Translations under genes and position numbers: made by a program
Assembly (NCBI GenBank): GCA_041650755.1
Contig: JBAZKN010000001.1
Coordinates: forward strand, 238,886-302,885
Reading direction: 5' to 3'
Source of the DNA: Patescibacteria group bacterium
GTDB taxonomy: Bacteria; Patescibacteriota; Patescibacteriia; UBA1558; GWA2-36-10
DNA length: 64,000 nt
In this document: positions 19,169 through 47,732 of the stretch, piece by piece
How the letters are laid out: every line of letters begins with the position of its first letter
Position numbering within the stretch: position 1 is the first letter of the stretch
The notes under the pieces: model-generated
The model's database searches: none
What the model saw: the letters and a program-made list of their open reading frames with translations, nothing else
Told to the model about the DNA's origin: nothing

Positions 19169-19172
19169 AAAG

Positions 19173-21096: not shown

Positions 21097-21103
21097 AAAT
21101 CCT

Positions 21104-22057: not shown

Positions 22058-22094
22058 AATATTATTTTAAAAATTTATTAACTATTTTTTCAAG

Positions 22095-22907: not shown

Positions 22908-22910
22908 AGT

Positions 22911-24017: not shown

Positions 24018-24022
24018 ACTTT

Positions 24023-25399: not shown

Positions 25400-25404
25400 A
25401 AAAA

Positions 25405-26565: not shown

Positions 26566-27196
26566 TAAAAAAGAAACCCAAAGGATAGCGCTGGCGCATC
26601 TTTGGTTTTATTTTTAAAAATAACTTATCCAACAAATAATAGGGGTAAAAAAGTACTACTCTCAAAATACGAGGCAAGAGAATCATGATGTTATTATAAT
26701 TGGCTGACCACGGCCCAAAACCAAGAGCAGTAATTTTTATCTGGCTAAATTTTGCCTGCTGAAGCATTTTTTCTAGAGCTTCGTGGCTATAACGAAAATA
26801 ATCGTGTGGATCCGGGTGATAATTAATGATAAATGGCACAAAGCCGATCAACTGGCCAGTCGGCTTTAATACTCGGCTGATTTCTGCCAAAAGAAAATTA
26901 TGATTATAAATATGCTCCAAAATATTAAAAGCTAATGCCTGATCAACCGAACAGTCAGCAAATGGCAAGGCATCCCGCTCCAAATCCAAGCGCTGATCGG
27001 CTTTGATATCTAAATCCAAATTTATTATTTTGGCATCTTCCATTTTATTCAAAAAACGAAAATAGCTGGAACCAGCGCCGCCGCCAATGTCCAAAACCAA
27101 ACCATGAACAGTAAATTTTTTTAAATGCAGATTGAGCAGAGCGCGCATCAATGATTTGCCCCTGCAAACCTGTTTTAATAATTCCCCACTTAACAT
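26546..27196 (-). CDS. Class I SAM-dependent methyltransferase
   Basis: VLDIGGGAGSSYF is motif I; LKPTGQLIGFVPF follows it. Confidence 0.75.
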   Translation of the reverse strand: MLSGELLKQVCRGKSLMRALLNLHLKKFTVHGLVLDIGGGAGSSYFRFLNKMEDAKIINLDLDIKADQRLDLERDALPFADCSVDQALAFNILEHIYNHNFLLAEISRVLKPTGQLIGFVPFIINYHPDPHDYFRYSHEALEKMLQQAKFSQIKITALGFGPWSANYNNIMILLPRILRVVLFYPYYLLDKLFLKIKPKMRQRYPLGFFFIAQKND

Positions 27197-27197
27197 A

Positions 27198-28382: not shown

Positions 28383-28402
28383 ATCGACAGACCAAATGCC
28401 AC

Positions 28403-29437: not shown

Positions 29438-29439
29438 CT

Positions 29440-30570: not shown

Positions 30571-30573
30571 ATA

Positions 30574-32013: not shown

Positions 32014-32015
32014 AA

Positions 32016-34617: not shown

Positions 34618-34631
34618 CTTTAGGATAACAA

Positions 34632-35351
34632 TTATTTTTTCTCAAACACGCAGACTAAGGCTTGACCCCAGTTTTTTAAAAAATCCAGCCGGCACAGCTT
34701 GTCATCAATGGTATGAATAAAGCGGTTACTAAACCAAAACCTGGGCAAACCTAAATAATGCAAGGGTGGCCAGAGAGTGGAAGCTCTGGATTTTTTCAGC
34801 TGCCAACCATTGGCTGACATGAACCCCAGCCATTGTTTGAGATTATAATCATATTGATGCTGATCAGGATCCCAGCCTTCCTTGATAACAGTGCGTGAAT
34901 GACGTCGCAAAATTTTACGACCAACAAATTTAAAAAAATTTTCCCATTTGTCGTGCATGGCCGGAAAAGTGATCAAAATACGGCCACCAGCCTTGGTCAG
35001 ACGATGCATTTCTTTTAAAACCAAATTGGGATGGATGACATGCTCAATAATATCGATGGCAATGCATTTATCAAATTGCTCGTCTAATGGTATAGACTCC
35101 ACGTCAGCCTGGACAGTCACAAAGTTTGCAATATTATTTTCTTTCATCAGGGCTCTGGCTGTAGCTAGCCTCTCTTCATTGATATCAACGCCGATCATTT
35201 TTTTAAATTTACCCTTATAAACTAGGGCTTGGACGCCATCGCCGCAACCAACATTTAAAACTGAATCTTCTTCTGTCAGGGGAAAAAATTTAGGATAAAT
35301 AATGCCGGAAATTAACTTACCTTTTTTAAATTTTATTGCCATTGACCCCAT
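34632..35351 (-). CDS. Class I SAM-dependent methyltransferase (first gene of the long minus-strand glycan operon)
   Basis: VLNVGCGDGVQAL is motif I; TKAGGRILITFP follows it. Confidence 0.75.
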   Translation of the reverse strand: MGSMAIKFKKGKLISGIIYPKFFPLTEEDSVLNVGCGDGVQALVYKGKFKKMIGVDINEERLATARALMKENNIANFVTVQADVESIPLDEQFDKCIAIDIIEHVIHPNLVLKEMHRLTKAGGRILITFPAMHDKWENFFKFVGRKILRRHSRTVIKEGWDPDQHQYDYNLKQWLGFMSANGWQLKKSRASTLWPPLHYLGLPRFWFSNRFIHTIDDKLCRLDFLKNWGQALVCVFEKK

Positions 35352-35414
35352 AAATTAATAATAAAAATTGGGAATTTTTTGGCCATAATTCTTGCCAAAA
35401 GATTAATAATGGGC

Positions 35415-35443
35415 TTGCATTAAGTCCATAAATTCTATAAAAT
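35415..35443 (+). promoter_or_regulatory. Putative promoter TTGCAT-N17-TAAAAT for the plus-strand GT4 gene
   Basis: TTGCAT at 35415-35420 and TAAAAT at 35438-35443. It overlaps the divergent minus-strand -10. Confidence 0.3.
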
Positions 35444-35470
35444 TATAACAGAAATGCTAAAAAAAATCAA
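35442..35470 (-). promoter_or_regulatory. Putative promoter of the 16-gene minus-strand glycan operon: -35 TTGATT, 17-nt spacer, extended -10 TGTTATAAT
   Basis: Minus-strand TGTTATAAT is the RC of plus attataaca at 35442-35450. It lies ~84 nt upstream of the ATG at 35351. Confidence 0.4.
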
Positions 35471-35500
35471 TAAATAATTTATCTAAAATTAGCCAAAAAT

Positions 35501-36697
35501 ATGCCCGAATTAGAAGCTCATAAACTACAAAATAAGAAGATCCTCTATCTGGTAACCCAAACCAAATGGGGTGGCGCACAAAAATATGTGCTCCAATTAG
35601 CCAAATATTTCAGCCAAAATAACCAGGTAACTATTGCTTTTGGCGAGGATGGCGGCCTTGACCCGCAATTTTTGGATGCCTGCCGGGCAATGAATATACG
35701 CACCATTACCCTCAAAAATCTGGTGCGCGAAATAAACATCCCCAAAGAAATGGCAGCCATCAAAGAATTGGCTAAAATATTAAACAAAGAAAACTACCAC
35801 CTGATTCATCTCAACAGTTCAAAAGCCGGCTTGATAGGCAGCTTGGCAGCCAAGCTGTATGCCAGCAATCCTTTTAATACCAAATTGCGCATTGTCTATA
35901 CCGCCCATGGTTTTGTATTTAATGAAAGGCTAAACCCTTGGATGAAAAAAATCTATGTCGCCTCAGAGACTTTCTCGGCCGGCCTGCAAAATCTGATCAT
36001 TGCCGTCTCTGAATATGACAAGCGGACTGCTCTAGCCAACAAAATTTGCCCGGCCTACAAAATCTTTGTGGTGCCCAACGGCATTGATCCGGCAGATTAT
36101 CATTTTTTGGATACCGACTCTGCCCGACAAGCGCTGCATTTGGCGCCAAATAAAAAATATTTCGGCACCATTGCCAGTTTTTATGCTAACAAAGGATACA
36201 CTTATCTGCTTGAGGCTATAAAAATCTTGCAAGACAAAAATTCTCCCCTGCTGAAAAATTGCTCTTGGGTTTTTATCGGCGATGGTCCAGAATTGGAAAA
36301 TATAAAAAAACAAATAGCCGCTGCCCATTTAGAAAATTTTATAACTATCATTGGAGCCAAAGACCAAGCCTGGCAATACTTATCAGCTTTTGATTATTTT
36401 ATCCTACCATCTATCAAAGAGGGTATGCCTTATACTATTTTGGAAGCCGGCTTGGCCAGAGTGCCGATTATAGCTAGTCGGGTGGGCGGCATACCGGAAA
36501 TTATTGATGACCAAAAAACCGGCTTGCTTACTTTGCCGGCCAATCCCCTGTCCTTAATTGAGGCCATGGAAAAAATAAGCGGCCATCCTTCTTTTGCCAA
36601 GCAACTGGCTCACCATAACTATCAAAATATTATCAGTCGCTTTTCTCTGAAAAAAACTTTGACCAGCACTGAAGACTTGTACCTAAAATTATTTTAG
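35501..36697 (+). CDS. Glycosyltransferase family 4
   Basis: GTIASFYANKGYTYLLEA...EAGLARVPIIASRVGGIPE. Confidence 0.75.
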   Translation: MPELEAHKLQNKKILYLVTQTKWGGAQKYVLQLAKYFSQNNQVTIAFGEDGGLDPQFLDACRAMNIRTITLKNLVREINIPKEMAAIKELAKILNKENYHLIHLNSSKAGLIGSLAAKLYASNPFNTKLRIVYTAHGFVFNERLNPWMKKIYVASETFSAGLQNLIIAVSEYDKRTALANKICPAYKIFVVPNGIDPADYHFLDTDSARQALHLAPNKKYFGTIASFYANKGYTYLLEAIKILQDKNSPLLKNCSWVFIGDGPELENIKKQIAAAHLENFITIIGAKDQAWQYLSAFDYFILPSIKEGMPYTILEAGLARVPIIASRVGGIPEIIDDQKTGLLTLPANPLSLIEAMEKISGHPSFAKQLAHHNYQNIISRFSLKKTLTSTEDLYLKLF

Positions 36698-36706
36698 CCA
36701 AAAAAT

Positions 36707-38425
36707 TTATAAGTCTATTTTATAAACCCGAAAAACAGTCTGCTGTCTGGCATCTTTTATTTCTCTTACCAGACTAGCCGGCGGCAAACTATTCTCCCAT
36801 TGGTTTAAGCTTTGCAATAATTCCGGGGTCACTGTTGCCTGGATGGGCAATTTATCAGTCGGCGCAATATAATACACCTGCCTTACCCCCATTTCCTTTA
36901 GGACAGCGGGCTTATCTTTTATTTTTGATGCCTGATAAGCCTCAAAAGACACTACCGGCCAGGCTTGATATAGCATCCGCCGAGTCAAGGACCAGACAAT
37001 GCCCTCATTATTTATACGATCATTATAAACAAATAGCCAGGGCTCTGCTTGGCCAATCTGTTTGGCAAAACTTTGACTGATCAAATTATCAATATTGGCA
37101 TTGACGGCCGTCAGCTTTACCGCCGGACGCTTATCTTGCAATAAATTATCCAAATAGTTGTCCAGCTGGTTATAGCCATAATTGTAGGCTTGATACTTGA
37201 GCCGAGAATAGCTGACGCCCTCTTGGCCTATTTTTTGGTAGCTGATATTGGTATTATAGCTAAAAAATGCTTCCCACAAACAAAGCGCGATAATCAATGG
37301 ATAGCTGATATTTTTTGGCCAAGATTGGCAAAAATTTAATATAGCCAGAGCTAAAAGTAAAGATAGCCAAGGCATCAATAATGCTAAAAATCTAGCCGGA
37401 CTGCCGATAAAAATAAACAAAACAATTTGCCAACCAATAATCAAAATCAACCACCAGAAATTCTGGCTGGTCTTTTTTAGACCGTTCTTAATAATTTTAT
37501 AAAGCGCCCAAATAAAACTCAGTGAAAATAAATAAAACAAAGATGGCGACAAAGAATATTTTAAGCCAGACACCATAAATGGCAAGCTTTCCAGTTTGCT
37601 GGGAATTTCCGCTCGCCCGGGTCTAGCCTGCCAGGCAGCGACCGACTGCTTGAACATAAAAGATAATTGGAAATCAAAGTGGCTAAAATTGCGATATAGA
37701 AAAATATTATAAATAATATATGGCGAACAAATCAGCAAGGTGAGCGTCAGCCCCCAATATAATTGCCTCATCCTAAAAATATCGCGACGCCAAATTATTA
37801 AGTAAGTAAAAAATACCGGTAACAAAACTATGGTAGTCAACTTGGTCATCAGGGCCAACCCCAAAACTATGCCCCAAACATAAAAATACTTTTTATTTTC
37901 TACGGACTTCAAAAATAACCAAACGCCCAAAAGGATCAACAAGATCGAGAGCGATTCTTGCAAAGCCAAGCGCGATACCCAGACATGGAGATTGTTGACC
38001 GCCAATAAAATAGCCGCCAGCCAAGCGACCCGATTATTAAATAATCTTTTGGCTATCAGATAAAGCAAATAAATACTGACCAAGCCATACAGAGCCGGCC
38101 AAAATCTGACAGCTAGAAGGCTGACGTCGGTCATCTGCAGTTGCAGCCATTGCAAAAAAAAGCTAAAGCTGGGATGATCATGAAAAGACAGATAAGACCA
38201 CCACGGCCTAGTATTCAGCCACTCCAAGGGAGTAGTTTGATAAGGGGTGGCTAGCCAGTCAAAATATCCTATGCTCCGCAAAGCCAGGGAGGCCTCGTCA
38301 GTCAGAACGTCAGCTCTAGCCAAAGCAAAAAAACGCAAAAAAGCAGCCGCGGCCGCCACTAGCAAAAATAAATAAGTAAATCGATTTTTAAATTTAGCAG
38401 TAAAATTTAAAAAGATATTTGGCAT
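36707..38425 (-). CDS. GT39 / ArnT-like (PMT family) membrane glycosyltransferase
   Basis: 572 aa with 10 or more TMs. N-terminal region ADVLTDEASLALRSIGYF is typical of dolichyl/undecaprenyl-phosphate-sugar:protein or lipid transferases (GT-C). Confidence 0.7.
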   Translation of the reverse strand: MPNIFLNFTAKFKNRFTYLFLLVAAAAAFLRFFALARADVLTDEASLALRSIGYFDWLATPYQTTPLEWLNTRPWWSYLSFHDHPSFSFFLQWLQLQMTDVSLLAVRFWPALYGLVSIYLLYLIAKRLFNNRVAWLAAILLAVNNLHVWVSRLALQESLSILLILLGVWLFLKSVENKKYFYVWGIVLGLALMTKLTTIVLLPVFFTYLIIWRRDIFRMRQLYWGLTLTLLICSPYIIYNIFLYRNFSHFDFQLSFMFKQSVAAWQARPGRAEIPSKLESLPFMVSGLKYSLSPSLFYLFSLSFIWALYKIIKNGLKKTSQNFWWLILIIGWQIVLFIFIGSPARFLALLMPWLSLLLALAILNFCQSWPKNISYPLIIALCLWEAFFSYNTNISYQKIGQEGVSYSRLKYQAYNYGYNQLDNYLDNLLQDKRPAVKLTAVNANIDNLISQSFAKQIGQAEPWLFVYNDRINNEGIVWSLTRRMLYQAWPVVSFEAYQASKIKDKPAVLKEMGVRQVYYIAPTDKLPIQATVTPELLQSLNQWENSLPPASLVREIKDARQQTVFRVYKIDL

Positions 38426-38449: not shown

Positions 38450-40783
38450 TTAGTCAAGAGGAAAATTGTCCTTGCTGACCGTTTGTTTGACGTATTGGTT
38501 AGTCCTGACTTTTTCAATAAATTTCACAGCCTCCGTTTCATAATTGCCGCCAAATTTTTTGATTTGCCCGGCAATAGCAATTGCTTTATCTTTTTCGCCA
38601 ATATTGGCATAAGACAAAGCCAAACTGATCCAGTATTCCGGATTATCCTGATAGTTTTGAGTCAGCAAAGAATAAAAGTTGACTGCCCAGGAAAAATTAT
38701 CAGCATAGACAGCTGAATTGGCCAGACGATTCAATGTTTTCTCCTTTTTATAATCAATCCCCAAAGCATCCATTTGATCAATATAGCTCTGGATTTTTTC
38801 CGGCATATCCCCCGGCAAAAGTGCCATAACCATATTAACATAAGATTCGTCTGTGTATGGATTTAGATCAATGGCTTTTTGAAAATTAGCCAGCAGCTTA
38901 TCCTGATAAATTTTGGCTTCGCCAATTTTCCCCTGCTCTTTCATCCATAAATATAGGTAAAGCTCGCCATAGCCCATTTCATAATAAAACTGCTGCCTGG
39001 TAGGGCTATATTTTATGGCTTCCTGACCGAGCTTATCTACTTCGTACAAACGATTAACGTCCAAAATATAGGTATAATTATAATGCCTCATAGCCAACAA
39101 ATAATTGGCTGCATCAAATGGGTCGGCTTGCTGGCGCTGTTTAAGCAGAGCATCTATCTTTTCCGTGTATTGCATGGCTACGTAGGGCGTAACTTTTTTA
39201 TTTATCAATAAATGATTAGAAAATTCTACCAGCTGACGCAAAAATTCATTACTACCGGAACTATGGTAATTCATGGCCTTAATAAAAGTCTGAAAAGATT
39301 TGTCAGTATCCACCGCCTCAAGGCGCAAAGCTTGGATAAAAGTAAGGTTGGCCTTGGTCTCGCGCCAGTTCACAAAATACATAATTGGAACAAAGGCCAA
39401 TAAATAAACGATAAAAGAAATTAGAACAATTTTATTATTGCGATAAGCCCGGCGCGGCTCAATATATTTCTGGGCCACCATGGCTAATAATAGTAGGAGC
39501 GGCAAATAAGTCACCAATGCTTCAAACACAACTAGGCCTTGTATAACAAAGGCTAGCGCCATCAAAAATAAAATTTGCTGGCTAAGCACGGCTTGCCAGG
39601 GCTCGCCCTTATCAAGCTGCAGCACTTTGCGGCCCAAAATATACAAAGGGCCAAGGATCAAAAATAAATACAATATAAAGCCCACCAAGCCGCCAGTCAC
39701 CAAGTGATCCAAAAATATATTGTGCGCCCGATCAAACCAGATGATCGCTCCGGCATGAGCAAAAATATTCGGATTATAATATTTATTAAAAACTCTATAA
39801 AAATTTTCCGCTCCCCAGCCAAAAATTGGTTTTTCTTTAAAGCCTTGCCAAGCCGATCCCCAAGCCATAAAACGAGTTTGCATGGTGCGCTCACCTAGGG
39901 ATATACTTGTCAAACGTGTCAGAGCAGTGCTATTTTGCACCCAAGGCTGACCTTTGTTTATATAAGCAAAAGACAAAAACCCCACAAAGATAAGGCCTAA
40001 AATTAGCAAACTATACTTAATTTTTTTCTGCGGCAAACGTAATAGATTGTAGACTATAAATACTAAAATACTAACCAGCAAAGCAATCAAAGCTCCCCTG
40101 GTGCCAGATTGAAAAATAATAAATATATCCAAAAGAATCCCCAAAATATAATAAATGCTCAAATAACGCGATTTTCTTTGCAGGGCCAAATAGGCGCCGG
40201 CAAAAACAGCAAACAGTAAATAACCGGCCGTATAGGCGGCATTGCCTATAGTTGAGGCTACCCTGTCATTGGAAATCAAAGATGATTTGTTTATCAGATC
40301 TATACCCAAATACTGCAAAAAGCCAAAAACAGCAACCACTTGCGCTGCCAAGAAAAAAATATCCCACAATACAGACCACTCTTTTTTGCTGTTTATAAAA
40401 TTGCGCAAAACCAAAAACCAGATAAATAAATGCAGCCAGAGCAAAAGCCCCTCGCTCCTCTCGGTATTGCTCCAAAAGCTAAAATAAAAATTTCCCCCAA
40501 TAAGAGAAGAAACAAACAGGCTGACAAGAAACAAGGCAAAGACAATGCTTAGCCAGTCAACTTTTAGCAGGCTGTCTTTGCGCAAATACCATCTCGCTAG
40601 CCATAAAAGCAATAAAAGTTCCGTCAGTATGCGAAAAACTATAGCTTTGCTGGAAATAAAGGGAAACAATAAATCACTGTTGACATAAGTAGGCACCAAC
40701 ATTATTAAACCCAAAACTACCCAAATAGCGCCGTCTATAAATTTTAGTTTTGACATTCTGTTATTATTTAAAACTTGGATCAA
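38450..40783 (-). CDS. O-antigen ligase / Wzy_C family membrane protein with C-terminal TPR region (paralog 3)
   Basis: SGTRGALIALLVSILV...RAHNIFLDHLVTGGLVGF (H-N-x9-G-xx-G), followed by a TPR-rich C-terminal half. Confidence 0.7.
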   Translation of the reverse strand: MIQVLNNNRMSKLKFIDGAIWVVLGLIMLVPTYVNSDLLFPFISSKAIVFRILTELLLLLWLARWYLRKDSLLKVDWLSIVFALFLVSLFVSSLIGGNFYFSFWSNTERSEGLLLWLHLFIWFLVLRNFINSKKEWSVLWDIFFLAAQVVAVFGFLQYLGIDLINKSSLISNDRVASTIGNAAYTAGYLLFAVFAGAYLALQRKSRYLSIYYILGILLDIFIIFQSGTRGALIALLVSILVFIVYNLLRLPQKKIKYSLLILGLIFVGFLSFAYINKGQPWVQNSTALTRLTSISLGERTMQTRFMAWGSAWQGFKEKPIFGWGAENFYRVFNKYYNPNIFAHAGAIIWFDRAHNIFLDHLVTGGLVGFILYLFLILGPLYILGRKVLQLDKGEPWQAVLSQQILFLMALAFVIQGLVVFEALVTYLPLLLLLAMVAQKYIEPRRAYRNNKIVLISFIVYLLAFVPIMYFVNWRETKANLTFIQALRLEAVDTDKSFQTFIKAMNYHSSGSNEFLRQLVEFSNHLLINKKVTPYVAMQYTEKIDALLKQRQQADPFDAANYLLAMRHYNYTYILDVNRLYEVDKLGQEAIKYSPTRQQFYYEMGYGELYLYLWMKEQGKIGEAKIYQDKLLANFQKAIDLNPYTDESYVNMVMALLPGDMPEKIQSYIDQMDALGIDYKKEKTLNRLANSAVYADNFSWAVNFYSLLTQNYQDNPEYWISLALSYANIGEKDKAIAIAGQIKKFGGNYETEAVKFIEKVRTNQYVKQTVSKDNFPLD

Positions 40784-41444
40784 TAGCTAATAATTTTTCT
40801 TTATACATAGCGGACTTTTCCGGATCGCTATCAGCAAAAAAAGTATACAAATATTGGTAAAATTGCCTTTGCTCCACATTGCCAGCCTTAGCTACACCCT
40901 CTAGCATTATGGCTTCTACTTTGCCGGGGTTAGCCGGCAAATAACCAGCCGTATAAAGCTCAGCATAAGATTGATAGTCAAAAAAATAGCCAATATTATC
41001 TATCTGAATTGTCTTGTCATAATAATAGACGGATTTTTCATAATCATTGCCAAATACTTTATAATAATTGCCTAAATTGCTATAAGCCAAAGGTCGCTTG
41101 GGATTCAACACAATAGCATACTGCCAAGCTTCCACTGCGCCGGCATAATCCTTTAGGCCCAGCTTGGTGTTCCCAATATCTACCCAAATGTCATATTTAT
41201 CAAAATCAATGTTTTGGCGCAAATAATCATAGTCTTTATTTAAGCGAGTGACTAGATCGCCAAAAGCAGACTCTGGGTCTTTACTCACTTGGGGAAAATC
41301 ATCTAGCGTATAAACTTTGGTAATATCGGGTTGATTACTGACCGTTGATTGCTTGTCTTTTATAAAAAATCCCAGGCCAATAAGCAGGCCAATAACAACT
41401 ACCAAAATTATGATAAAAATAAATTTTTTTCGATTTAAATGCAT
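40764..41444 (-). CDS. Membrane-anchored TPR-repeat protein
   Basis: N-terminal TM segment FIFIIILVVVIGLLIGLGFF, then TPR-like repeats (AGAVEAWQYAIVLNP...). Confidence 0.55.
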   Translation of the reverse strand: MHLNRKKFIFIIILVVVIGLLIGLGFFIKDKQSTVSNQPDITKVYTLDDFPQVSKDPESAFGDLVTRLNKDYDYLRQNIDFDKYDIWVDIGNTKLGLKDYAGAVEAWQYAIVLNPKRPLAYSNLGNYYKVFGNDYEKSVYYYDKTIQIDNIGYFFDYQSYAELYTAGYLPANPGKVEAIMLEGVAKAGNVEQRQFYQYLYTFFADSDPEKSAMYKEKLLAIDPSFK

Positions 41445-41466
41445 AATTTCTATTTAATACCTGCTA

Positions 41467-41495
41467 ATTCTAAAATATTTTGGAGCTTCTGACAA
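41467..41495 (-). promoter_or_regulatory. Putative sigma70 promoter TTGTCA-N17-TAGAAT for the TPR / ligase-3 / GT39 operon
   Basis: -35 is the RC of tgacaa at 41490-41495; -10 is the RC of attcta at 41467-41472. The ATG is at 41444 (~16-nt leader). Confidence 0.45.
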
Positions 41496-41525
41496 GCCCC
41501 CGTCCCGCATTGCGGGACGGGGGCT
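41495..41525 (-). terminator. Strong GC-rich hairpin (14-bp perfect stem, 3-nt loop), a terminator for the large surface-protein gene
   Basis: AGCCCCCGTCCCGC-att-GCGGGACGGGGGCT, 55 nt downstream of the stop at 41580. On the minus strand it is followed by TTGTCAG, and on the plus strand by TGTCTTTAT, so it could act in either direction. Confidence 0.6.
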
Positions 41526-41579
41526 GTCTTTATATAAACCACTTCAAATAAAGCAATTTATACGAGCTGTCAAGAAAAC

Positions 41580-44500
41580 TTAGCTTGACCAACCAATGAC
41601 GTAAGCTGTACCTGTGGTATTGGCACCCAAACCGGATACTAAGTAGCCGTTGTACCATTGACCATAGGCAGTAGCATTAGAGCCATCGGTAGCTAAGCCG
41701 CGGTTCTTGAAGTTATCTGACCAGACAAAGTTGCCTTGGTTCATAGTGCCCCAAGCATCAGCCAAGTTTTGGCCAGCAGCAGCTGGAGTACCAAAACTAG
41801 CGGCTGGTGTGGATGAAGCAGTATCACCCAACATAGAAACGCTCAAGTTATCACCAGTGCCAGCAGTAGCGATTGTACAATTCAACTTGTAAGTCATGCT
41901 AGCGCCCGGAGAAATCATCAAAGCCTCTTTGGTGTCACCAGCAGAAACAGTTGGATTATCAAAAACATAGCTGACATAACCTGCTGTAGTGGCATCAACA
42001 TCAGTTAAATTAGTGGAAGCACCAACTGTATTGCCCTCTGAGTCTTTAACATAACATGAAGAGACTGAGATGGCACCATCACCGCCAGTGGCAATCTCAA
42101 AGCTTGTTCTATAGAGCAAGACTTCCGAGCCATTGGCATCGGCCGCTACCTTATAGGCAAAGACGTCAGATGCGCCATTGACCATAGCAGTAGCCGCACC
42201 CAAAACATTGCCAGACTGTGAATAAGTCACAGTTGGGATAGCCTTGTGAATTATCATGGATGATGTGGTTGAACCATTGTAGGTTTCAGTAGAGACAGTA
42301 GCGTTGGATGAATTACCGATTGCGGTAATACCATCTGTACCGCCAATACCAAACCTGACATCAGCCGCTGGAGTAGCTGGAGCATTGTCCAAGTTCTGGT
42401 TGATAGTACCGATATCAGCCTTGATGGTCAAGATCTTTGACTGATCTTGTTGAACAGTCAAGACGCCGCGATCAAGGTTGAAAGTAATATAACCATTAGA
42501 TGAGACAGGACCGCTGGCAATCACCTTGGTGCCATCATAGACATAAAGTTGAGTTACGTCTTGATAGTTACCAGTAGCTGTGCCGGTCAAGCCGCCATCA
42601 GTCGTGAAGATTTTCAAAACTGTCACATCAATTGGCTCATATTGGGCATCCAATTTGATGGAGCCAAAAGTTACGCCAGTTGCACCAGCGCGCACAAAGC
42701 CGTTAGTTGGATTATTAGAGGTGCTGATAGTGATTGAACCACCGGCTGAGTAGGTCAAAACTGCGCCGTTATCAGCTGTCAAAGCCAAAGTAGCGCGATT
42801 GCCTGTGCTCACACCATAGGCCAATACTGAAGCATTGGCTGTGGTATTGGTATCAGTCAAACCAAATTCAGATGACTGATTGGTGGTAGCAGCACTGTTG
42901 ATATCACCAACTAATTGGATGGTCCTGTTAGTACCCTTGGTGATGATAATTGGATCATCAAAGGCAAAGGTTGAAGACTGGCCATCGCCGGCTGTCGGAG
43001 CATCATTGATTGGGCTCTTGGCTACGCCGCCGCTGCCATAAACACCATCATAAACTGTCAAGTTTGACACTTCGGTTGAAGAAGCGGCAAAGACCAATGA
43101 AGTTATTCTGATGTTTTCGCCAGAATTGGTAGCATCAAAGTTCCATGAACCCAATAATACGTCCTGGGCGCCTTTGATGACATTGTTGCTGGATGGCAAA
43201 GTATTGCGGGTAACTGTCAAGTATGCGGCTTTGACAGTCTGGGTGTTGGTGTCTATCTGTGAAGCAGTAGTCGGGGTAATAGCATCACCAGTTGTCTGAC
43301 CAGTAGCAATGATCTTGCTAGCTGGAGTATTCAAAGAGGCATAAATAGTGTCATTGGTTGCCCAACCACCATTAGTAGACAAATTACCAACTACCTTAAC
43401 CACTGTATCACCCACCGGCAAAGTAAAGGTATCGGTGAATGGTACGGTCAAAGCAGTCAAATCAGTTGGACCAGCCAAGGTTTTGCCATTGGCGTCAACC
43501 AACTTAACAGCCTGCAAAGCATCTTCGATCTGACTGCCAGATGAAGAAGTAATGGTCAAAGTCAAAGCAGTCACATCAATTGGCTCACCTTTGACAGTGA
43601 ATTTGAAAGCACCCAAGGTTTGATCGTTGCCAACAGTGATGTTGGTAGCGGTGACCGTGTTGCTTCTTTCAACAGTCATAGTACCACTGGAAATGGTGGC
43701 TGTATTGCCCCAGAACACCGGATTGGTGGTAGCTGAAGCAGAAGTGCCAGTGCCAGAAGTTGTCGGGGTGATATTATAGCCATAGGTTTGGCCTTGGACC
43801 AAAATATCAGTGCGGCGATAAAAGCCGACCTGAACAGTTCTGGCTGAACCACTCTCAACATCAGCCCTTATCTGGAATTGATAGGTTTGACCTTTAGGAA
43901 TGGTCAAAGGTGAAGTCAAGATAAAGTTGATGTATTTGCTATTGCTAGTATCGACAACACCATCAGCTATTTTGGTACCGTCTCTCAATAGTTCCCAATT
44001 GTTCAAATCACTGGTCAAAGAAGCAGTGCCAATCTGATAAGCTGACATTTGCTTCAAAGTCACATCTTCAGCTGAACCAGCCTGGATTTGGAAAGCGGTA
44101 AAAGTATAGTCAGTCTTACCAACTTCCAAAGCAGTGGAGGTAGCGTTTAGATATGAACCACGAGAAACAGTGGCTGAACCAATGGTGATAGTGGCATTCA
44201 ATGTCTGGGTATTGCCATAAATTGGCAAGGTGCCAGACACAGTGCCGCCGCCAGTCAAGGTGATAGATGACACACCCAAAGCTGGGGCTTCACCAGCATA
44301 GTCGGTCAAGGTACCCATATTACCAGACAAGATCAAATACTTGGTAGTATTGGCTGGAATGGTAATATCTTTGGTAAAGGTAGCTTCATGGTTAGAATTG
44401 AAAGTTTTGGAATTAGTATCAAGCGGTAAATTTGTGCTAGCATCCAAAACATCAACGCTAGAGAAAGCGCCGTCCTGACCAATGCCGCCTCGTTTGACAA

Positions 44501-45344
44501 TCATGGTGTCAATAGTAGCGGCTTGGCTGCCAGTAGTCACTGCCAATTTGGTAAATGGAGCTCTGGCTGAATTGCTGACTACCATACCAGAAGCTGGGGT
44601 ATCAGCAGCCAAAGAAACGGTCACACCACCAGTATTGCCAGGAGTGGGTGTTGAGCTGGTCAAACCGGCCAAAGCACTCTCCTTGCTGGTGATAGAAGTA
44701 CCGTCAGTGTAGGCAGACAAATCTGTGACAGTGATCACATCGGCAGTGTTGAAATTGTTATCAGCAAAGCCGGTTCCGGCAAATGGTCTCTTGGTTGAAC
44801 CATCAATATAATAAGTGGTTGAACCAGATTTAACCAGAGTACCAGTTGGGTACGTGCTGGATAAATCAGTACCTACAGTATAGGTAGAAGAGAAAAAGCC
44901 AGGGATCACATCATAGACTTTTTTGGCCCAATCGCTGCCATACAAAGTAGAAGCGGTGCTTGCATCTGGAATCCAGCGGATCACACTATTTGGTTCCACT
45001 GCGTAGATTTTTGCAGTGTTCATGTGTGTGACCAGCTTGGTGCCAGGGCGAAGACCGACAGCACCACCATCAGGATATTTATCCAACTCAGTCACTGGAA
45101 CTCTGACTACTTTGTCAAAGTTTGTGTACCAAGTGAAATATTCCTTGGTGCTGGGGAAAACCTTCTTAGTGCCATTGTCCATAACAATATAGACAGCTGC
45201 ACCTTTCTGACCTTGCAATGCCAACAATGAGCCGGCTGGGTAACTACCAGCAGCTTGGGCAGTAGATACAAAACCTGCACCCACTGACCAAAGAATGGTG
45301 GTCATTACCACAGCGGAGGTAAAAATTTTCTTGAGTAAACTCAT
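41580..45344 (-). CDS. Large secreted cell-surface protein (1254 aa), S-layer/adhesin-like, T/S/G/A/N-rich
   Basis: Signal peptide MSLLKKIFTSAVVMTTILWSVGAGFVSTAQA|AG. Long low-complexity beta-rich repeats. Aromatic-rich C-terminus (YGQWYNGYLVSGL...YVIGWSS). Confidence 0.6.
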   Translation of the reverse strand: MSLLKKIFTSAVVMTTILWSVGAGFVSTAQAAGSYPAGSLLALQGQKGAAVYIVMDNGTKKVFPSTKEYFTWYTNFDKVVRVPVTELDKYPDGGAVGLRPGTKLVTHMNTAKIYAVEPNSVIRWIPDASTASTLYGSDWAKKVYDVIPGFFSSTYTVGTDLSSTYPTGTLVKSGSTTYYIDGSTKRPFAGTGFADNNFNTADVITVTDLSAYTDGTSITSKESALAGLTSSTPTPGNTGGVTVSLAADTPASGMVVSNSARAPFTKLAVTTGSQAATIDTMIVKRGGIGQDGAFSSVDVLDASTNLPLDTNSKTFNSNHEATFTKDITIPANTTKYLILSGNMGTLTDYAGEAPALGVSSITLTGGGTVSGTLPIYGNTQTLNATITIGSATVSRGSYLNATSTALEVGKTDYTFTAFQIQAGSAEDVTLKQMSAYQIGTASLTSDLNNWELLRDGTKIADGVVDTSNSKYINFILTSPLTIPKGQTYQFQIRADVESGSARTVQVGFYRRTDILVQGQTYGYNITPTTSGTGTSASATTNPVFWGNTATISSGTMTVERSNTVTATNITVGNDQTLGAFKFTVKGEPIDVTALTLTITSSSGSQIEDALQAVKLVDANGKTLAGPTDLTALTVPFTDTFTLPVGDTVVKVVGNLSTNGGWATNDTIYASLNTPASKIIATGQTTGDAITPTTASQIDTNTQTVKAAYLTVTRNTLPSSNNVIKGAQDVLLGSWNFDATNSGENIRITSLVFAASSTEVSNLTVYDGVYGSGGVAKSPINDAPTAGDGQSSTFAFDDPIIITKGTNRTIQLVGDINSAATTNQSSEFGLTDTNTTANASVLAYGVSTGNRATLALTADNGAVLTYSAGGSITISTSNNPTNGFVRAGATGVTFGSIKLDAQYEPIDVTVLKIFTTDGGLTGTATGNYQDVTQLYVYDGTKVIASGPVSSNGYITFNLDRGVLTVQQDQSKILTIKADIGTINQNLDNAPATPAADVRFGIGGTDGITAIGNSSNATVSTETYNGSTTSSMIIHKAIPTVTYSQSGNVLGAATAMVNGASDVFAYKVAADANGSEVLLYRTSFEIATGGDGAISVSSCYVKDSEGNTVGASTNLTDVDATTAGYVSYVFDNPTVSAGDTKEALMISPGASMTYKLNCTIATAGTGDNLSVSMLGDTASSTPAASFGTPAAAGQNLADAWGTMNQGNFVWSDNFKNRGLATDGSNATAYGQWYNGYLVSGLGANTTGTAYVIGWSS

Positions 45345-45387
45345 GTTTGATTTTAATTAATCAATGCTCTTTACGATATCAATTTAG

Positions 45388-45439
45388 CCATCATGATAGG
45401 GCACCCCGCTCAGCGGAGCTAAAAAACTATCATCCTGGT
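45388..45439 (-). promoter_or_regulatory. Imperfect 12-bp inverted repeat enclosing a small CCGC-TCA-GCGG hairpin, in the leader/upstream region of the surface-protein gene
   Basis: ccatcatgatag (45388-45399) pairs with ctatcatcctgg (45428-45439) at 10 of 12 positions. The inner hairpin is at 45406-45416. Confidence 0.3.
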
Positions 45440-45748
45440 CATCCACTCTTTCGAGGCCGACCTTTCTGATAAGCCAAGTAATAGGCTCTATCAAATGATC
45501 TAAATGATAAACTATAAAGAACACCTAATTAGATACTCTCTCTGCCGTACGGACATCGAGAGCTTCCCTAAAGTCGCGCGCGATTTAGCGATAAGTTAGG
45601 GACAACAACAACTAATTAATCATTACATAATTGTTAATTGTCTCAATTAAACAATTAACTATTAGTTACTATTGCCCATAACCTATCTGCGACTGACTAG
45701 GCCGCGTCGCACACTATTTGGGAAAAATTATTTTTTTAAAATAACTTT

Positions 45749-47077
45749 TTATTGAAAGAGCTCTGTTTCTGTATTCTCTGGCATGATAATGCCTTCCTCT
45801 GCTTTAATCTCCCGATTGATATCTTCGGTATCAGTAGTCGTCTCACTGGATGATTTTATCGGCTGACCTATCGGCAAACTTCTAGTGGAAGAGGCATTGA
45901 CAGGCGGTGTACTGGTGGAATTCTTATTATCTTTGGGTTCATCAGCCTGATTTTCGATATTTTTCAAAACTGTTTCTGTGGCTTGGGTCTTTTCTTTGAC
46001 TTCCACTATCTTATTTAAAGTGTCTTTAAAGGCGCCCTTGTCCAGTAGCTCCTTAGCTTCATTCAAACCAGCTTGGGCCTCTGCCGGGCTTTTCTTGATA
46101 TTGTCGATACTTTGGGCATCAACGCCGGATTTTTCGTCTACAATCTGGACTTTATCTTTTACGCCCTGCACTTCTGAAGATAAATCTTGGATAGCAGAGT
46201 CAAGCATCTTAGAAACCGCCTCTTGGACAGCCTTTACTTCTTGAGAGCTTGGATTATTATCGTCAATTTTGACTGTGGTGCTGGCTGGGGTGTTAATTGG
46301 AGCCTGCCCGCCGTCTTGCTGGGCTACTGCCTTGGCAACCACCTCTTCATGAACCTCTAGAGCCAGGGAAACAGCTGAAGTCTTGACATCATCATTCACT
46401 TGCTTGGCGTTATCCAAAGCCTCTTCAATAACTTTATCTTGAGAATCATTGGCTTTGGCAGCCAAAGTAGAAGCAGTCTCTTTGGTGGCGTTGGTGACTT
46501 TTTCTGCCAAGGCAACGACTGCTATCGGATCTTTCTCACCTGTCTCTTTGACTACCCGCAAAGTAGTATTGGCGGCTACCACGTCTTTTTCTAAATGACT
46601 GACTGCCTGCTTAATGGCCTTTTCTTTTTGCACATCAGCCGCAGAATTATTATTGTCAGTAGTTTCACTCAAAATCTTGTCTATCTCATCCAAACGCTTA
46701 CCAGCATGCTTGATGTGTAGTTCGGTTTCTTTTACCGGCCCCCAGGCCAAGGCCAACTCCCCTTTCTCTAAACCGCGCTTGAGTGACCAAAGCGTATCAC
46801 CCGGCACAGCTGCTTGAGCAACTACGCCAAGACCAGAACCAATGGACAAAACCAAAAAAACAGCGATTGCTTTGGTCGCCTGCGACATCAATCTCACGCC
46901 CAAGCGCATGCCGAATATGTCCAATTTTTCAGCAGAAGTCAAACTTTGGGCCTTCATCAACTTATTTTGAACATAAATTTCTGACAATAAGTTGTATTTG
47001 GTAGTTCGGACCCACTTTTTTTCTGGCTGCAATTCTGGCAAATACTTGAGGTGGGATAATTTTTTTCTTAGACTCAT
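45749..47077 (-). CDS. Single-pass membrane protein downstream of ECF sigma; putative anti-sigma factor (DUF5667-like), coiled-coil-rich
   Basis: ~68-aa cytoplasmic N-terminus, a TM segment AIAVFLVLSIGSGLGVVAQAA, then ...PGDTLWSLKRGLEKGELALA..., and a long K/E/A/V-rich extracellular region. Gap to the sigma gene is 5 nt. Confidence 0.45.
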   Translation of the reverse strand: MSLRKKLSHLKYLPELQPEKKWVRTTKYNLLSEIYVQNKLMKAQSLTSAEKLDIFGMRLGVRLMSQATKAIAVFLVLSIGSGLGVVAQAAVPGDTLWSLKRGLEKGELALAWGPVKETELHIKHAGKRLDEIDKILSETTDNNNSAADVQKEKAIKQAVSHLEKDVVAANTTLRVVKETGEKDPIAVVALAEKVTNATKETASTLAAKANDSQDKVIEEALDNAKQVNDDVKTSAVSLALEVHEEVVAKAVAQQDGGQAPINTPASTTVKIDDNNPSSQEVKAVQEAVSKMLDSAIQDLSSEVQGVKDKVQIVDEKSGVDAQSIDNIKKSPAEAQAGLNEAKELLDKGAFKDTLNKIVEVKEKTQATETVLKNIENQADEPKDNKNSTSTPPVNASSTRSLPIGQPIKSSSETTTDTEDINREIKAEEGIIMPENTETELFQ

Positions 47078-47082: not shown

Positions 47083-47634
47083 TTATTGATTGATAGTCAA
47101 GCTTTTTAGCTTGGCTAAAGCGCGATGCAAGAGAACGCGCACATTATTTTTATCTTTTTGCAGAATACCGGCTATATCTTCGATGGACAAATCTTCCACA
47201 AAGCGTAAGAGCAAAACTTCTTGGTATTCTGGTTTTAAATTACGCAATAGTTTGAGCAGAGTCTCGGTGTCCATGGACTTATCTAGAGTAGCCGCTTTAT
47301 CGTCCGCTGGCTCCTGGCTCTCATCCAAATATTCCAGAGGCAGCTCTTGGCGATATGATTTGCGATAATAATCCACTACTGAATTTCTGGCAATGCGGAA
47401 AATAAAGGCGGAAAAGCTGCGAATATCTTTTTTATCAACCAGGTGCTGCCAAATCTTCAAAAATATATCTTGGGTAAGGTCCTCGGCCACCTGCTTATCA
47501 GAAACCTTGATAAAGACAAAACGATATATCCGATCTACATATTGGTCATAAAAAAAAGAAAAAGCGTCTGAATCACCGGATTTTAGCCGCAAAAAAGCTA
47601 TCTTTTCTTGTAAGTTGCTCCTTAAACTATTCAT
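47083..47634 (-). CDS. ECF-type RNA polymerase sigma factor (sigma-70 regions 2 and 4)
   Basis: Region 2 is RIYRFVFIKVSDKQVAEDLTQDIFLKIW. Region 4 HTH is LSIEDIAGILQKDKNNVRVLLHRALAKLK. Confidence 0.85.
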   Translation of the reverse strand: MNSLRSNLQEKIAFLRLKSGDSDAFSFFYDQYVDRIYRFVFIKVSDKQVAEDLTQDIFLKIWQHLVDKKDIRSFSAFIFRIARNSVVDYYRKSYRQELPLEYLDESQEPADDKAATLDKSMDTETLLKLLRNLKPEYQEVLLLRFVEDLSIEDIAGILQKDKNNVRVLLHRALAKLKSLTINQ

Positions 47635-47732
47635 AAATATAGACGCAAATAGTACCTAAATATTACACTAATAAAAACAAAAATATGCCAATATAATGAC
47701 TATTATTATAAATTGAATAAATAATTTATCAA

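What the first reader, a model, noticed from the sequence alone, without database searches (positions are those of the whole stretch)
41445..45748. Large (1254 aa) S-layer-like surface protein with a 404-nt upstream region, flanked by a very strong hairpin terminator
The ORF has a cleavable signal peptide (…STAQA|AG), T/S/G/N-rich beta-repeat composition and an aromatic C-terminus. These are properties of S-layer or adhesin proteins. It is preceded by the longest non-coding stretch in the window (404 nt) and followed by a 14-bp perfect GC stem. That arrangement resembles highly expressed S-layer genes, which have long stabilising 5' UTRs and strong terminators. The Ser/Thr richness makes it a natural substrate for the adjacent O-glycosylation locus.
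Basis: partly seen in the sequence, partly recalled or inferred. Interest (0 to 1): 0.55.

Follow-up and report, generated by a model that had tools for sequence, protein, structure and literature searches.

The report
Candidate S-layer glycoprotein gene of Patescibacteria
This gene encodes a large, secreted protein that is probably made in very large amounts and is conserved across hundreds of ultra-small Patescibacteria, which makes it the best candidate for their unidentified surface-layer protein, and it sits behind a previously undescribed conserved RNA structure.

Summary
A 1254-aa ORF (41580-45344, minus strand) has a Sec signal peptide, a 404-nt upstream gap and a 14-bp hairpin downstream. 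There is no Pfam, NCBIfam or PDB sequence match. The gene belongs to a large Patescibacteria-only family: about 1,300 clusters at 50% identity, almost all 1150-1300 aa and collinear. AlphaFold models (pLDDT 91-94) show an N-terminal triple alpha/beta repeat followed by six cohesin/Ig-like beta-sandwiches, with no enzyme domain. The gene has the strongest codon bias in the window, stronger than the ribosomal protein genes. A strong terminator hairpin follows it in 48 of 49 related loci. Synteny is conserved: an ECF sigma gene and a DUF5667 putative anti-sigma gene lie upstream, and TPR, Wzy_C+TPR and PMT_2 genes plus a complete Wzx/Wzy glycan locus lie downstream. The long leader is also conserved (median 372 nt). 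It contains a structured RNA motif absent from Rfam: helix P1, an unpaired AAAGGYCGR, hairpin P2, then the P1 return strand. All 15 base pairs show compensatory changes. Most likely this is the major cell-surface (S-layer-type) glycoprotein, expressed from an insulated transcript under RNA-level control. Lattice formation, glycosylation, the transcription start and the RNA's function are all untested.

The parts
41580..45344 (-). CDS of the 1254-aa secreted surface protein ('BIG'), stop codon included
   Evidence: ORF list. An identical protein is in NCBI as a hypothetical protein from a Patescibacteria MAG. The family has about 1,320 cluster representatives.
45252..45344 (-). Sec-type signal peptide, residues 1-31, cleavage after AQA
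   Evidence: Read directly from the sequence. The KK + hydrophobic + AxA pattern is conserved in 20 homologues.
44649..45251 (-). N-terminal domain (residues 32-232): three ~65-aa alpha/beta repeats with the pattern G.L[VI]k...[VI]Y.[VI]..G.kR.fps...f...g; putative wall-anchoring module
   Evidence: AF2 model with pLDDT >90. No Pfam hit. The third repeat is absent in some homologues. The anchoring role is an inference only.
41583..44624 (-). Six tandem, distantly homologous beta-sandwich domains, D1-D6, residues 241-1254
41625..41738 (-). Conserved aromatic C-terminal motif GNFVWSD...QWYNGYLVSGL
   Evidence: Invariant F1206, W1208, W1230, G1233 and V1236 in alignment A1.
45345..45748 (-). 404-nt structured leader / intergenic region
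   Evidence: MFE -137.2 kcal/mol against -92.5 +/- 5.6 for shuffles, z = -7.96. Sequence blocks conserved in 8 related loci. No Rfam match.
45434..45478 (-). Window copy of the conserved leader RNA motif: P1 (45478-45468 paired with 45443-45434), unpaired AAAGGUCG (45465-45458), short P2 with a GAAA loop
   Evidence: Constrained folding. Model R3 hits 45439-45472 at 16.9 bits. Family-wide covariation.
45565..45602 (-). Invariant block TCCCTAAcTTATCGCTaAATCGCGCGCGA..TAGGGA (inverted repeat with a conserved loop)
   Evidence: Alignments of 8 leaders. It occurs only in BIG leaders among the 88 loci and the window. Whether it acts as an RNA hairpin or a DNA operator is undecided.
45515..45533 (-). 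Conserved block TCTAATTAG.(C)GTTCCTA, predicted to pair with the stretch about 20-30 nt before the ATG (45365-45374)
   Evidence: RNAalifold long-range helix with compensatory changes in 3 or more pairs.
41495..41525 (-). Terminator hairpin, 14 bp with a 3-nt loop
   Evidence: Scan. -37.3 kcal/mol with its outer extension (about 41491-41528). An equivalent hairpin is present in 48 of 49 loci.
41467..41495 (-). Sigma-70-like promoter match (TTGTCA-17-TAGAAT) for the downstream TPR / Wzy_C operon
   Evidence: Consensus scan, 10 of 12 positions. This is a match only, not proof of function.
45749..47077 (-). DUF5667 membrane protein (442 aa), putative anti-sigma factor
   Evidence: Pfam PF18915. 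It lies between the ECF sigma gene and BIG in most loci.
47083..47634 (-). ECF sigma factor (183 aa)
   Evidence: Pfam Sigma70_r2, r4_2 and Sigma70_ECF. On the same strand within 3.5 kb upstream of BIG in 59 of 65 loci.
47642..47667 (-). ECF-type promoter TGTAAT-N16-CGTC(TA), abutting the sigma gene's ATG
   Evidence: Conserved in 8 loci. Unique in the window. In the loci it is found almost only upstream of the ECF gene: nine of ten matching loci, with L062 not checked.
40764..41444 (-). TPR protein (226 aa), first gene after BIG
   Evidence: Pfam TPR. Conserved position.
38450..40783 (-). Wzy_C (O-antigen ligase / O-oligosaccharyltransferase family) + C-terminal TPR, 777 aa; overlaps the TPR gene by 20 nt
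   Evidence: Pfam PF04932 + TPR_17. Found downstream of BIG in 36 of 50 loci.
36707..38425 (-). PMT_2 (GT-C protein mannosyltransferase-like), 572 aa
   Evidence: Pfam PF13231 / PF02366. In Falkowbacteria it lies directly next to BIG.
12119..36697 (.). Wzx/Wzy-type glycan assembly locus: Bac_transf initiating transferase, Wzx flippase, epimerases, 8 GT4 glycosyltransferases, 3 B12-radical-SAM enzymes, 3 methyltransferases, 2 more Wzy_C proteins
   Evidence: Pfam scans.

Best explanation
The ORF encodes the major cell-surface structural protein of a Patescibacteria (probably Komeilibacteria/ABY1-type) cell. Most likely it is the S-layer protomer.

Proposed mechanism:
1. The protein is exported by Sec and its signal peptide is removed after AQA.
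2. Its N-terminal triple repeat is proposed to hold it on the cell wall.
3. Six rigid beta-sandwich domains form the exposed layer.
4. It is probably O-glycosylated. The neighbouring Wzx/Wzy locus would build an undecaprenyl-linked glycan, and the co-inherited TPR + Wzy_C-TPR enzyme (PglL/WsaB-like) and/or the PMT_2 enzyme would transfer it.
5. The gene is an insulated, very highly expressed unit. A long structured leader carries a conserved RNA motif (P1 / unpaired AAAGGYCGR / P2). This motif probably binds a factor that sets mRNA stability, processing or translation. A strong terminator hairpin separates the gene from the glycosylation operon, which has its own promoter-like site.
6. An ECF sigma / DUF5667 putative anti-sigma pair, usually with an HtrA-like PDZ protease, sits directly upstream and probably couples envelope status to this locus.

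Shown here: secretion signal, fold class, family size and fixed architecture, codon bias, conserved leader, RNA motif and terminator, and synteny.

Inferred: lattice formation, wall anchoring, glycosylation, the role of the RNA, and control by the ECF system.
For: Family:
- Full-length homologues occur across Komeili-, Falkow-, Portnoy-, Doudna-, Buchanan-, Magasanik-, Uhr- and Kerfeldbacteria.
- 248 species genomes carry a relative.
- There are 1,320 cluster representatives at 50% identity, and nearly all are 1150-1300 aa and collinear.

Fold:
- pLDDT is 93.7 and 90.5 for the two halves. pTM is 0.86 for D4-D6.
- The protein is made of all-beta sandwiches and has no catalytic domain.

S-layer-like chemistry: pI 4.6, 2 Cys, T/G/A/S-rich.

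Expression proxy:
- ENC is 40.9, the lowest of 47 ORFs.
- CAI against the window's ribosomal protein operon ranks 2 of 42.
- Gly GGA+GGG is 1% against 19% in other genes, and Leu TTG is 76% against 39%.

Transcription unit:
- The leader has a median length of 372 nt.
- A terminator hairpin is present in 48 of 49 loci.

RNA motif:
- AAGGTCG occurs in 42 of 56 leaders, 43 occurrences against 1.1 expected. It is the commonest 7-mer.
- One-mismatch variants occur in most of the remaining leaders.
- Covariance models find 34 hits in 2 x 1.3 Mb, and about 30 of them lie just upstream of BIG homologues.
- 96.8-98.5% of cells are paired against 55-62% after shuffling. All 15 pairs have compensatory changes. 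Slid-partner controls give 33-45%.
- A second copy precedes another secreted T/G/A-rich protein in L082.

Synteny:
- ECF sigma is upstream in 59 of 65 loci. Wzy_C or PMT is downstream in 41 of 50.
- In L032 and L034, BIG and the downstream Wzy_C are replaced together (35% and 28% identity) while ECF stays 68% identical.

The glycan locus is complete.

S-layers have been seen on Patescibacteria by microscopy. The papers searched name no protein for these lineages (PMC13293708).
Against: - There is no experimental evidence of abundance, lattice formation or glycosylation.
- No SLH, CWB2 or other known anchoring domain is present.
- The window's own copy of the RNA motif is degenerate: P2 has only 3-4 bp, and it scores 16.9 bits with E 0.24 in the window alone.
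- The transcription start is unknown, so some of the 'leader' could be untranscribed or part of a read-through transcript from the ECF operon.
- The ECF-type promoter found upstream of the sigma gene is absent from the BIG leader.
- The Wzy_C family also contains polymerases and ligases that do not act on proteins.
Confidence: 0.6

Rival explanations
1. The protein is a host-attachment adhesin or fibril of an episymbiotic cell. It projects from the surface to bind the host rather than forming a closed 2-D lattice.
For: The tandem beta-sandwich architecture resembles integrin legs, pilins, and Bap-, PrgB- and CLIPPER-type adhesin domains. Patescibacteria are largely episymbionts (established knowledge). 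In Portnoy- and Doudnabacteria the gene lies beside type IV pilus genes. Its rapid divergence relative to its neighbours would also fit host-specificity evolution.
Against: The family has a fixed set of six non-identical domains and an almost invariant length. Fibrillar adhesins usually have a variable number of near-identical stalk repeats. There is no LPXTG or other covalent anchor and no distinct tip or lectin domain. Codon bias exceeds that of the ribosomal proteins, which argues for a bulk structural protein. The D4-D6 arrangement is compact (pTM 0.86).
Confidence: 0.2
2. It is a secreted, wall-associated scaffold or sheath component that is abundant but not lattice-forming. For example, it could be a carrier for the glycan made by the adjacent locus, a proteoglycan-like matrix.
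For: Glycan-transfer genes are tightly co-inherited with it. It is Thr/Ser-rich. No known S-layer anchoring domain is present.
Against: The well-folded, rigid multi-domain model is unlike mucin-type carriers. Conserved domain interfaces suggest a defined architecture.
Confidence: 0.12
3. The 404-nt region is not a 5' UTR of this gene. It would be an independent small RNA gene or a DNA-level regulatory region (operators and promoters), and the apparent RNA motif would be incidental.
For: The transcription start is unmapped. The invariant TCCCTA...TAGGGA block shows no covariation and could be a protein-binding palindrome. The window copy of the motif scores poorly.
Against: The motif is always on the coding strand, 80-260 nt before the ATG of BIG homologues, and once before another secreted protein. 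P1 and P2 covary extensively. A predicted long-range helix links the leader to the region just before the start codon. No terminator consistently separates the motif from the ORF.
Confidence: 0.08

Closest known systems
S-layer glycoproteins of Geobacillus stearothermophilus / Paenibacillus alvei (SgsE, SbsC, SpaA) with their slg gene clusters (WsaP initiating transferase, WsaB/WsfB Wzy_C-type O-oligosaccharyltransferase)
   Same: A large, acidic, Cys-poor, secreted protein built from strings of beta-sandwich domains. SbsC appears among the Foldseek hits. It lies next to a glycan locus with a Bac_transf initiating enzyme and Wzy_C-family candidate transferases. The gene is monocistronic with a strong terminator.
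   Different: There is no detectable sequence homology. There is no SLH or SbsC-type coiled-coil anchoring domain; the N-terminal triple repeat is uncharacterised. The glycan pathway here is Wzx/Wzy-type, with TPR-fused Wzy_C and PMT_2 enzymes. An ECF sigma / anti-sigma pair is attached. (The properties of the known systems are from established knowledge, not tested here.)
Clostridioides difficile SlpA and its variable S-layer cassette
   Same: A highly expressed surface protein that diverges much faster than its neighbours. In some strains it is swapped as a cassette together with adjacent genes. Compare L032 and L034: BIG is 35% and Wzy_C 28% identical while ECF is 68% identical.
   Different: SlpA is anchored by CWB2 repeats, is cleaved into two subunits, and depends on SecA2. 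None of these features is seen here.
Long structured 5' UTRs of S-layer and outer-membrane protein mRNAs (Lactobacillus slpA, Thermus thermophilus slpA, E. coli ompA)
   Same: A long, highly structured leader (z = -7.96) in front of a very highly expressed envelope protein gene.
   Different: Those leaders are lineage-specific hairpins without a widely conserved sequence motif. Here an invariant unpaired AAAGGYCGR, framed by two covarying helices, is conserved across classes of Patescibacteria and is absent from Rfam.
Fibrillar adhesins (Bap, SasG, PrgB and CLIPPER-domain adhesins)
   Same: Tandem Ig/cohesin-like beta-sandwich domains and a surface location.
   Different: This family has a fixed six-domain architecture, no near-identical repeats, no sortase or T1SS/T5SS signals, and extreme codon bias.
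Sigma-E / RseA / DegS envelope-stress module of Proteobacteria
   Same: An ECF sigma, a single-pass membrane protein directly downstream, and a PDZ-containing HtrA/DegS-like protease a few kb upstream. The adjacent surface protein ends in a conserved aromatic motif.
   Different: The DUF5667 protein has no recognised anti-sigma domain. No RseP-like protease was seen. Linkage of such a module to one structural gene is not a feature of the classical system. The functional analogy is speculation.

Membership tests
Bacterial S-layer proteins (functional class) | Secreted to the cell surface | tested here: met
   Sec signal peptide with an AxA site, conserved in homologues. No TM segment or lipobox in the mature part.
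Bacterial S-layer proteins (functional class) | One of the most abundant cell proteins | tested here: inconclusive
   Only proxies are available: lowest ENC (40.9) of 47 ORFs, codon bias stronger than the ribosomal proteins, and a strong terminator. No expression data.
Bacterial S-layer proteins (functional class) | Self-assembly into a regular 2-D lattice | not testable with these tools
   Needs cryo-ET or in vitro reassembly.
Bacterial S-layer proteins (functional class) | Non-covalent cell-wall anchoring module | tested here: inconclusive
   A distinct N-terminal triple repeat exists. It matches no Pfam family, and a homologue search gave only 4 fragments.
SLH-domain or CWB2-domain S-layer proteins | SLH (PF00395) or CWB2 (PF04122) repeats | tested here: not met
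   No Pfam or NCBIfam hit at E<=1 for the whole protein or at E<=10 for single domains.
Fibrillar adhesins | Variable number of near-identical stalk repeats, plus an adhesive tip and a covalent or secretion-system anchor | tested here: not met
   The six domains are only 21-29% identical to each other. Family length is nearly constant. No LPXTG; the C-terminus is ...VIGWSS.
Known enzyme families | A recognisable catalytic domain by sequence or fold | tested here: not met
Protein O-glycosylation systems with a Wzy_C-type oligosaccharyltransferase (PglL / PilO / WsaB) | A Wzy_C-domain membrane enzyme encoded with the acceptor protein and a lipid-linked glycan pathway | tested here: met
   Wzy_C+TPR lies two genes downstream. 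Bac_transf, Wzx, GT4s and two more Wzy_C genes are in the window. Synteny holds in 36 of 50 loci.
Protein O-glycosylation systems with a Wzy_C-type oligosaccharyltransferase (PglL / PilO / WsaB) | Demonstrated transfer of glycan to Ser/Thr/Tyr of the protein | not testable with these tools
   Needs glycoproteomics. Wzy_C also includes polymerases and ligases.
Rfam RNA families | A match to any curated covariance model | tested here: not met
   Only sub-threshold noise hits (miRNA and snoRNA models) on the window leader and on two strong exemplars, L066 and L042.
ECF sigma factors (for the upstream gene) | Sigma-70 regions 2 and 4 only, a cognate membrane partner gene, and an AAC-type -35 / CGT-type -10 autoregulated promoter | tested here: met
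   Pfam r2, r4_2 and Sigma70_ECF. DUF5667 partner. TGTAAT-N16-CGTCTA conserved before the gene. The partner's anti-sigma activity is untested.

The most novel reading that the evidence does not exclude
This family is the so far unidentified S-layer protomer of the ABY1 / Paceibacteria-type Patescibacteria, and the AAAGGYCGR leader motif is a new class of cis-regulatory RNA dedicated to surface-protein genes in this phylum. The RNA would be read by an unknown protein or ligand. It might work together with a sigma-E-like circuit, in which the HtrA/PDZ protease, the DUF5667 anti-sigma and the ECF sigma sense unassembled subunits through their conserved aromatic C-terminus.
Probability: 0.3. Interest if true: 0.75.

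Novelty: new variant of a known kind. Interest (0 to 1): 0.62.

Why it matters
Patescibacteria (CPR) make up a large share of bacterial diversity. Electron microscopy shows a surface layer on some of them, but the papers I could search name no protein for it in these lineages.

A single, phylum-restricted and nearly ubiquitous family gives a concrete candidate. It has a confident structural model, signs of extreme expression, and a dedicated glycosylation cassette. This candidate can be fitted into tomograms, looked for in metaproteomes, and used as a cell-surface marker or as a target for antibodies and phage-receptor studies.

The leader RNA motif adds a new structured RNA family from a phylum where almost no regulatory RNAs are known. 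The invariant linkage to an ECF sigma pair suggests how genome-reduced cells monitor their envelope.

Tried and rejected
- **Sequence searches of the protein.** Pfam, NCBIfam and PDB sequence searches of the whole protein and of each domain found nothing.
- **N-terminal domain alone.** A homologue search returned only 4 fragments and no other architectures. tblastn found no paralogous copies of the N- or C-terminal modules in the window or in the flanks of 88 loci.
- **Rfam.** Searches on the window leader and on two strong exemplars gave noise only.
- **Seed alignments for the RNA model.** MAFFT alignments of diverse motif copies were out of register (A5, A6, A7). I therefore started from two same-geometry sequences and iterated R1 to R3.
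- **AAGGTCG as an ECF promoter element.** Rejected. Only 7-9 nt are conserved, the flanks covary as helices, and the real ECF-type promoter (TGTAAT-N16-CGTCTA) is found only upstream of the sigma gene.
- **Motif at the extreme 5' end behind a fixed -10 box.** There is no consistent -10 box upstream of P1.
- **Small ORF or tRNA in the leader.** None is credible.
- **Phage or mobile-element origin.** Not supported. The context is chromosomal (ribosomal protein operon, pilus and glycan loci) and synteny is conserved across classes.
- **Literature.** Searches for a named CPR S-layer protein or for DUF5667 found nothing specific.

Full report
**1. Observation**

The minus-strand ORF at 41580..45344 encodes 1254 aa. 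It begins MSLLKKIFTSAVVMTTILWSVGAGFVSTAQA|AG, a textbook Sec signal peptide with no lipobox. The mature protein is 126 kDa with pI 4.6. Its composition is T 15%, G 10%, A 10%, S 10%, and it has 2 Cys.

The next upstream gene ends at 45749, which leaves 404 nt with no credible ORF and no tRNA. Downstream, 41495-41525 forms 14 perfect base pairs (12 G-C) around a 3-nt loop. With the outer pairs the hairpin folds at -37.3 kcal/mol.

One detail of the finding is wrong. The 447-nt gap at 47635-48081 is longer than the 404-nt gap.

**2. What the protein is**

Pfam, NCBIfam and PDB sequence searches find nothing, either for the whole protein or for each domain alone.

The protein nevertheless belongs to a large family.
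- The word-indexed search gave 214 hits. All are annotated 'hypothetical', and they come from Komeili-, Falkow-, Portnoy- and Doudnabacteria and unclassified Patescibacteria.
- 248 GTDB species genomes carry a relative.
- An exhaustive phmmer search of 1.84 billion cluster representatives found 1,320 at E<=1e-3 and 956 at E<=1e-10. Nearly all are 1150-1300 aa and align end to end.

The family therefore has a fixed architecture, not a variable repeat number. Internal comparison shows six distantly related domains of about 150-180 aa (D6 about 220 aa), 21-29% identical to each other.

AlphaFold2 with a 102-sequence alignment gave pLDDT 93.7 for residues 32-706 and pLDDT 90.5, pTM 0.86, for residues 707-1254. 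The model shows three ~65-aa alpha/beta repeats, a short linker, then all-beta sandwiches.

**3. Evidence bearing on expression**

The gene has the lowest effective number of codons of the 47 ORFs of 150 aa or more in the window: 40.9, against 43-55 for the others.

The window contains a ribosomal protein operon at 57.2-63.3 kb. Using it as the reference, the gene ranks 2 of 42 by CAI. Its bias is more extreme than that of the ribosomal proteins themselves:
- Gly GGA+GGG is 1%, against 8% in ribosomal proteins and 19% in other genes.
- Leu TTG is 76%, against 41% and 39%.
- NCG codons are at 2% or below.

This is what translational selection on a very abundant protein looks like, but it is a proxy only.

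**4. Transcription-unit anatomy is conserved**

In 56 related loci the upstream gap has a median of 372 nt, which is long for such compact genomes. In 48 of 49 loci a strong G+C-rich hairpin follows the stop codon, usually with a U-tract. The median is -26.2 kcal/mol, against -12.9 for random 200-nt segments.

A sigma-70-like match (TTGTCA-17-TAGAAT) lies directly after the window's hairpin, in front of the TPR gene. The structural gene therefore looks insulated from the enzymes downstream.

**5. The leader contains a new structured RNA motif**

The 404-nt leader folds far better than shuffles: -137.2 against -92.5 +/- 5.6 kcal/mol, z = -7.96.

Alignment of eight related leaders shows invariant blocks, and between them are hairpins whose sequences differ but still pair.

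Across all lineages the heptamer AAGGTCG is present in 42 of 56 leaders. That is 43 occurrences against 1.1 expected, and it is the commonest 7-mer. It typically lies 80-200 nt before the ATG. One-substitution variants with the same flanking helices occur in most of the remaining leaders, for example AAGGCCG and AAGGTTG.

The architecture is: P1 5' strand, 1-3 nt, unpaired AAAGGYCGR, hairpin P2, 0-3 nt, P1 3' strand.

I built covariance models iteratively from two same-geometry copies (R1 to R3). R3 finds 34 matches in 1.3 Mb searched on both strands. About 30 of them lie immediately upstream of BIG homologues.

On the resulting alignments:
- 96.8-98.5% of cells are standard pairs, against 55-62% after shuffling (0 of 500 shuffles reach the observed value).
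- All 15 pairs show changes on both sides.
- Sliding the partners by 1-3 columns drops pairing to 33-45%.

The alignments are fitted to the model, which inflates these numbers somewhat. As an independent check, a strict descriptor scan finds the architecture at 22 of 43 sites, against 2.3 with shuffled flanks.

Rfam 15 has no match for the window leader or for two strong exemplars.

The window's own copy (45434-45478) is degenerate. P2 has only 3-4 bp with a GAAA loop, and the copy scores 16.9 bits with E 0.24 in the window alone. Its identity rests on position and on the alignment with close relatives.

A second good copy in L082 lies about 107 nt upstream of a different secreted T/G/A-rich 362-aa protein. 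The motif therefore seems tied to surface-protein genes rather than to one family.

In the closest relatives, RNAalifold also predicts a long-range helix between the conserved GTTCCTA block and the stretch 20-30 nt before the ATG, with compensatory changes.

I could not determine the transcription start. There is no consistent -10 box before P1.

**6. Neighbourhood**

The upstream genes are a DUF5667 single-pass membrane protein and an ECF sigma factor. An ECF sigma gene lies on the same strand within 3.5 kb upstream in 59 of 65 loci. An HtrA-like PDZ protease often lies further upstream.

The sigma gene has two promoters conserved in eight loci. One is sigma-70-type, TTTACA-N17-TGTTATAAT. The other is ECF-type, TGTAAT-N16-CGTCTA, and abuts the ATG. 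The ECF-type motif does not occur in the BIG leader. If ECF controls BIG, it would have to be by read-through or through a different element.

The downstream genes are a 226-aa TPR protein, a 777-aa Wzy_C+TPR protein that overlaps it by 20 nt, and a PMT_2 enzyme. Wzy_C or PMT lies within 7 kb downstream in 41 of 50 loci.

The rest of the window from 12 to 36 kb is a complete Wzx/Wzy-type glycan locus. It includes a Bac_transf initiating transferase, Wzx, epimerases, 8 GT4 enzymes, B12-radical-SAM enzymes, methyltransferases and two more Wzy_C genes.

In L032 and L034 the ECF, HtrA and GT4 genes remain 55-68% identical to the window. BIG drops to 35%, and in L032 the downstream Wzy_C drops to 28% (L034 ends before it). 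This is a cassette-like co-replacement, and it argues that BIG and its Wzy_C partner work together.

**7. Interpretation**

The best reading is a major, probably S-layer-forming, O-glycosylated surface protein expressed from an insulated unit with RNA-level control. I put confidence at about 0.6 for S-layer specifically, and higher for 'abundant structural surface protein'.

The main rival is a host-attachment adhesin, at about 0.2. The fixed architecture, the absence of an anchor signal and the codon bias argue against it, but it is not excluded, and the two roles can coexist.

S-layers have been reported on some Patescibacteria by microscopy (PMC13293708). Proteins with SLH domains are invoked for Absconditicoccaceae (PMC13059738). 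I found no paper naming this family.

**8. Novelty**

The kind of thing is known: an S-layer-type glycoprotein gene with a long leader and a terminator. Three elements are not described in Pfam, Rfam, the PDB or the literature I could search:
- the protein family itself;
- its N-terminal module;
- the AAAGGYCGR leader motif, together with the near-obligatory ECF / DUF5667 linkage.

I therefore rate it a new variant of a known kind, of moderate to high interest.

Noticed in passing
window 47642-47667 (-) and 47733-47761 (-): The ECF sigma gene has two conserved promoters. One is sigma-70-type with an extended -10 (TTTACA-N17-TGTTATAAT). The other is a textbook ECF-type promoter (TGTAAT-N16-CGTCTA) whose -10 lies only about 6 nt before the ATG, which implies a leaderless or nearly leaderless autoregulated transcript.
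   Followed up: partly
L082 1380-1414 (-), upstream of ORF L082 185..1273 (-); also L084 529-570 (-): A second good copy of the AAAGGUCG leader motif (40 bits) precedes a different secreted T/G/A-rich 362-aa protein with no Pfam match. This suggests a small set of surface-protein genes shares the motif.
   Followed up: partly
L032 and L034 compared with the window: There is a cassette-like replacement. ECF sigma (68%), HtrA (55%) and GT4 (56%) stay similar, but BIG is only 35-36% identical. In L032 the downstream Wzy_C is only 28% identical and the TPR gene is not detected; L034 ends too soon after BIG to tell. This resembles S-layer cassette switching.
   Followed up: partly
window 48082-48381 (+): A 99-aa HTH_17 (excisionase/MerR-like) gene is transcribed divergently between the HtrA-like protease and the ECF sigma gene. 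An equivalent small HTH gene is present in L003 and L082.
   Followed up: no
window 12119-16475 (-): Two further tandem Wzy_C paralogues (726 and 727 aa) lie at the far end of the glycan locus, giving three Wzy_C genes in 30 kb. They could serve as polymerase, ligase and protein-transferase, but this is unresolved.
   Followed up: no
window 24023-25399, 30574-32013, 32016-33461 (-): Three B12-binding radical SAM enzymes are embedded among the GT4 glycosyltransferases. This hints at unusual C-methylated or otherwise modified sugars in the glycan.
   Followed up: no
window 632-11969: A type IV pilus locus (PilB/T2SSE, PilC/T2SSF) includes giant pilin-like proteins: 1029 aa with N_methyl + DUF2341, and 426 aa with N_methyl + Laminin_G_3. 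CheA-like and MCP-like genes follow.
   Followed up: no
leaders of L054, L057, L060, L064, L066, L076, L077 (about 40-65 nt before P1): A lineage-specific conserved block GCCATACAGT(A) lies upstream of the motif in Magasanikbacteria-like loci. A different block (AGTTCATT...TTTGGAG.AATTAGG.TCT) lies there in Buchananbacteria-like loci. The whole leader, not only the motif, is under constraint.
   Followed up: no
L007/L026, L025, L036 (Doudnabacteria-like loci): The few loci that lack the leader motif are also those that lack the upstream ECF / DUF5667 pair; pilin genes sit there instead. Whether this reflects functional coupling or only shared ancestry cannot be separated.
   Followed up: no
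window 2258-2295 (+): With filters off, model R3 scores a site inside, and antisense to, the 1029-aa pilin-like ORF slightly higher (17.7 bits) than the true leader copy. This is most likely chance, and it shows that the window copy alone is not statistically significant.
   Followed up: partly
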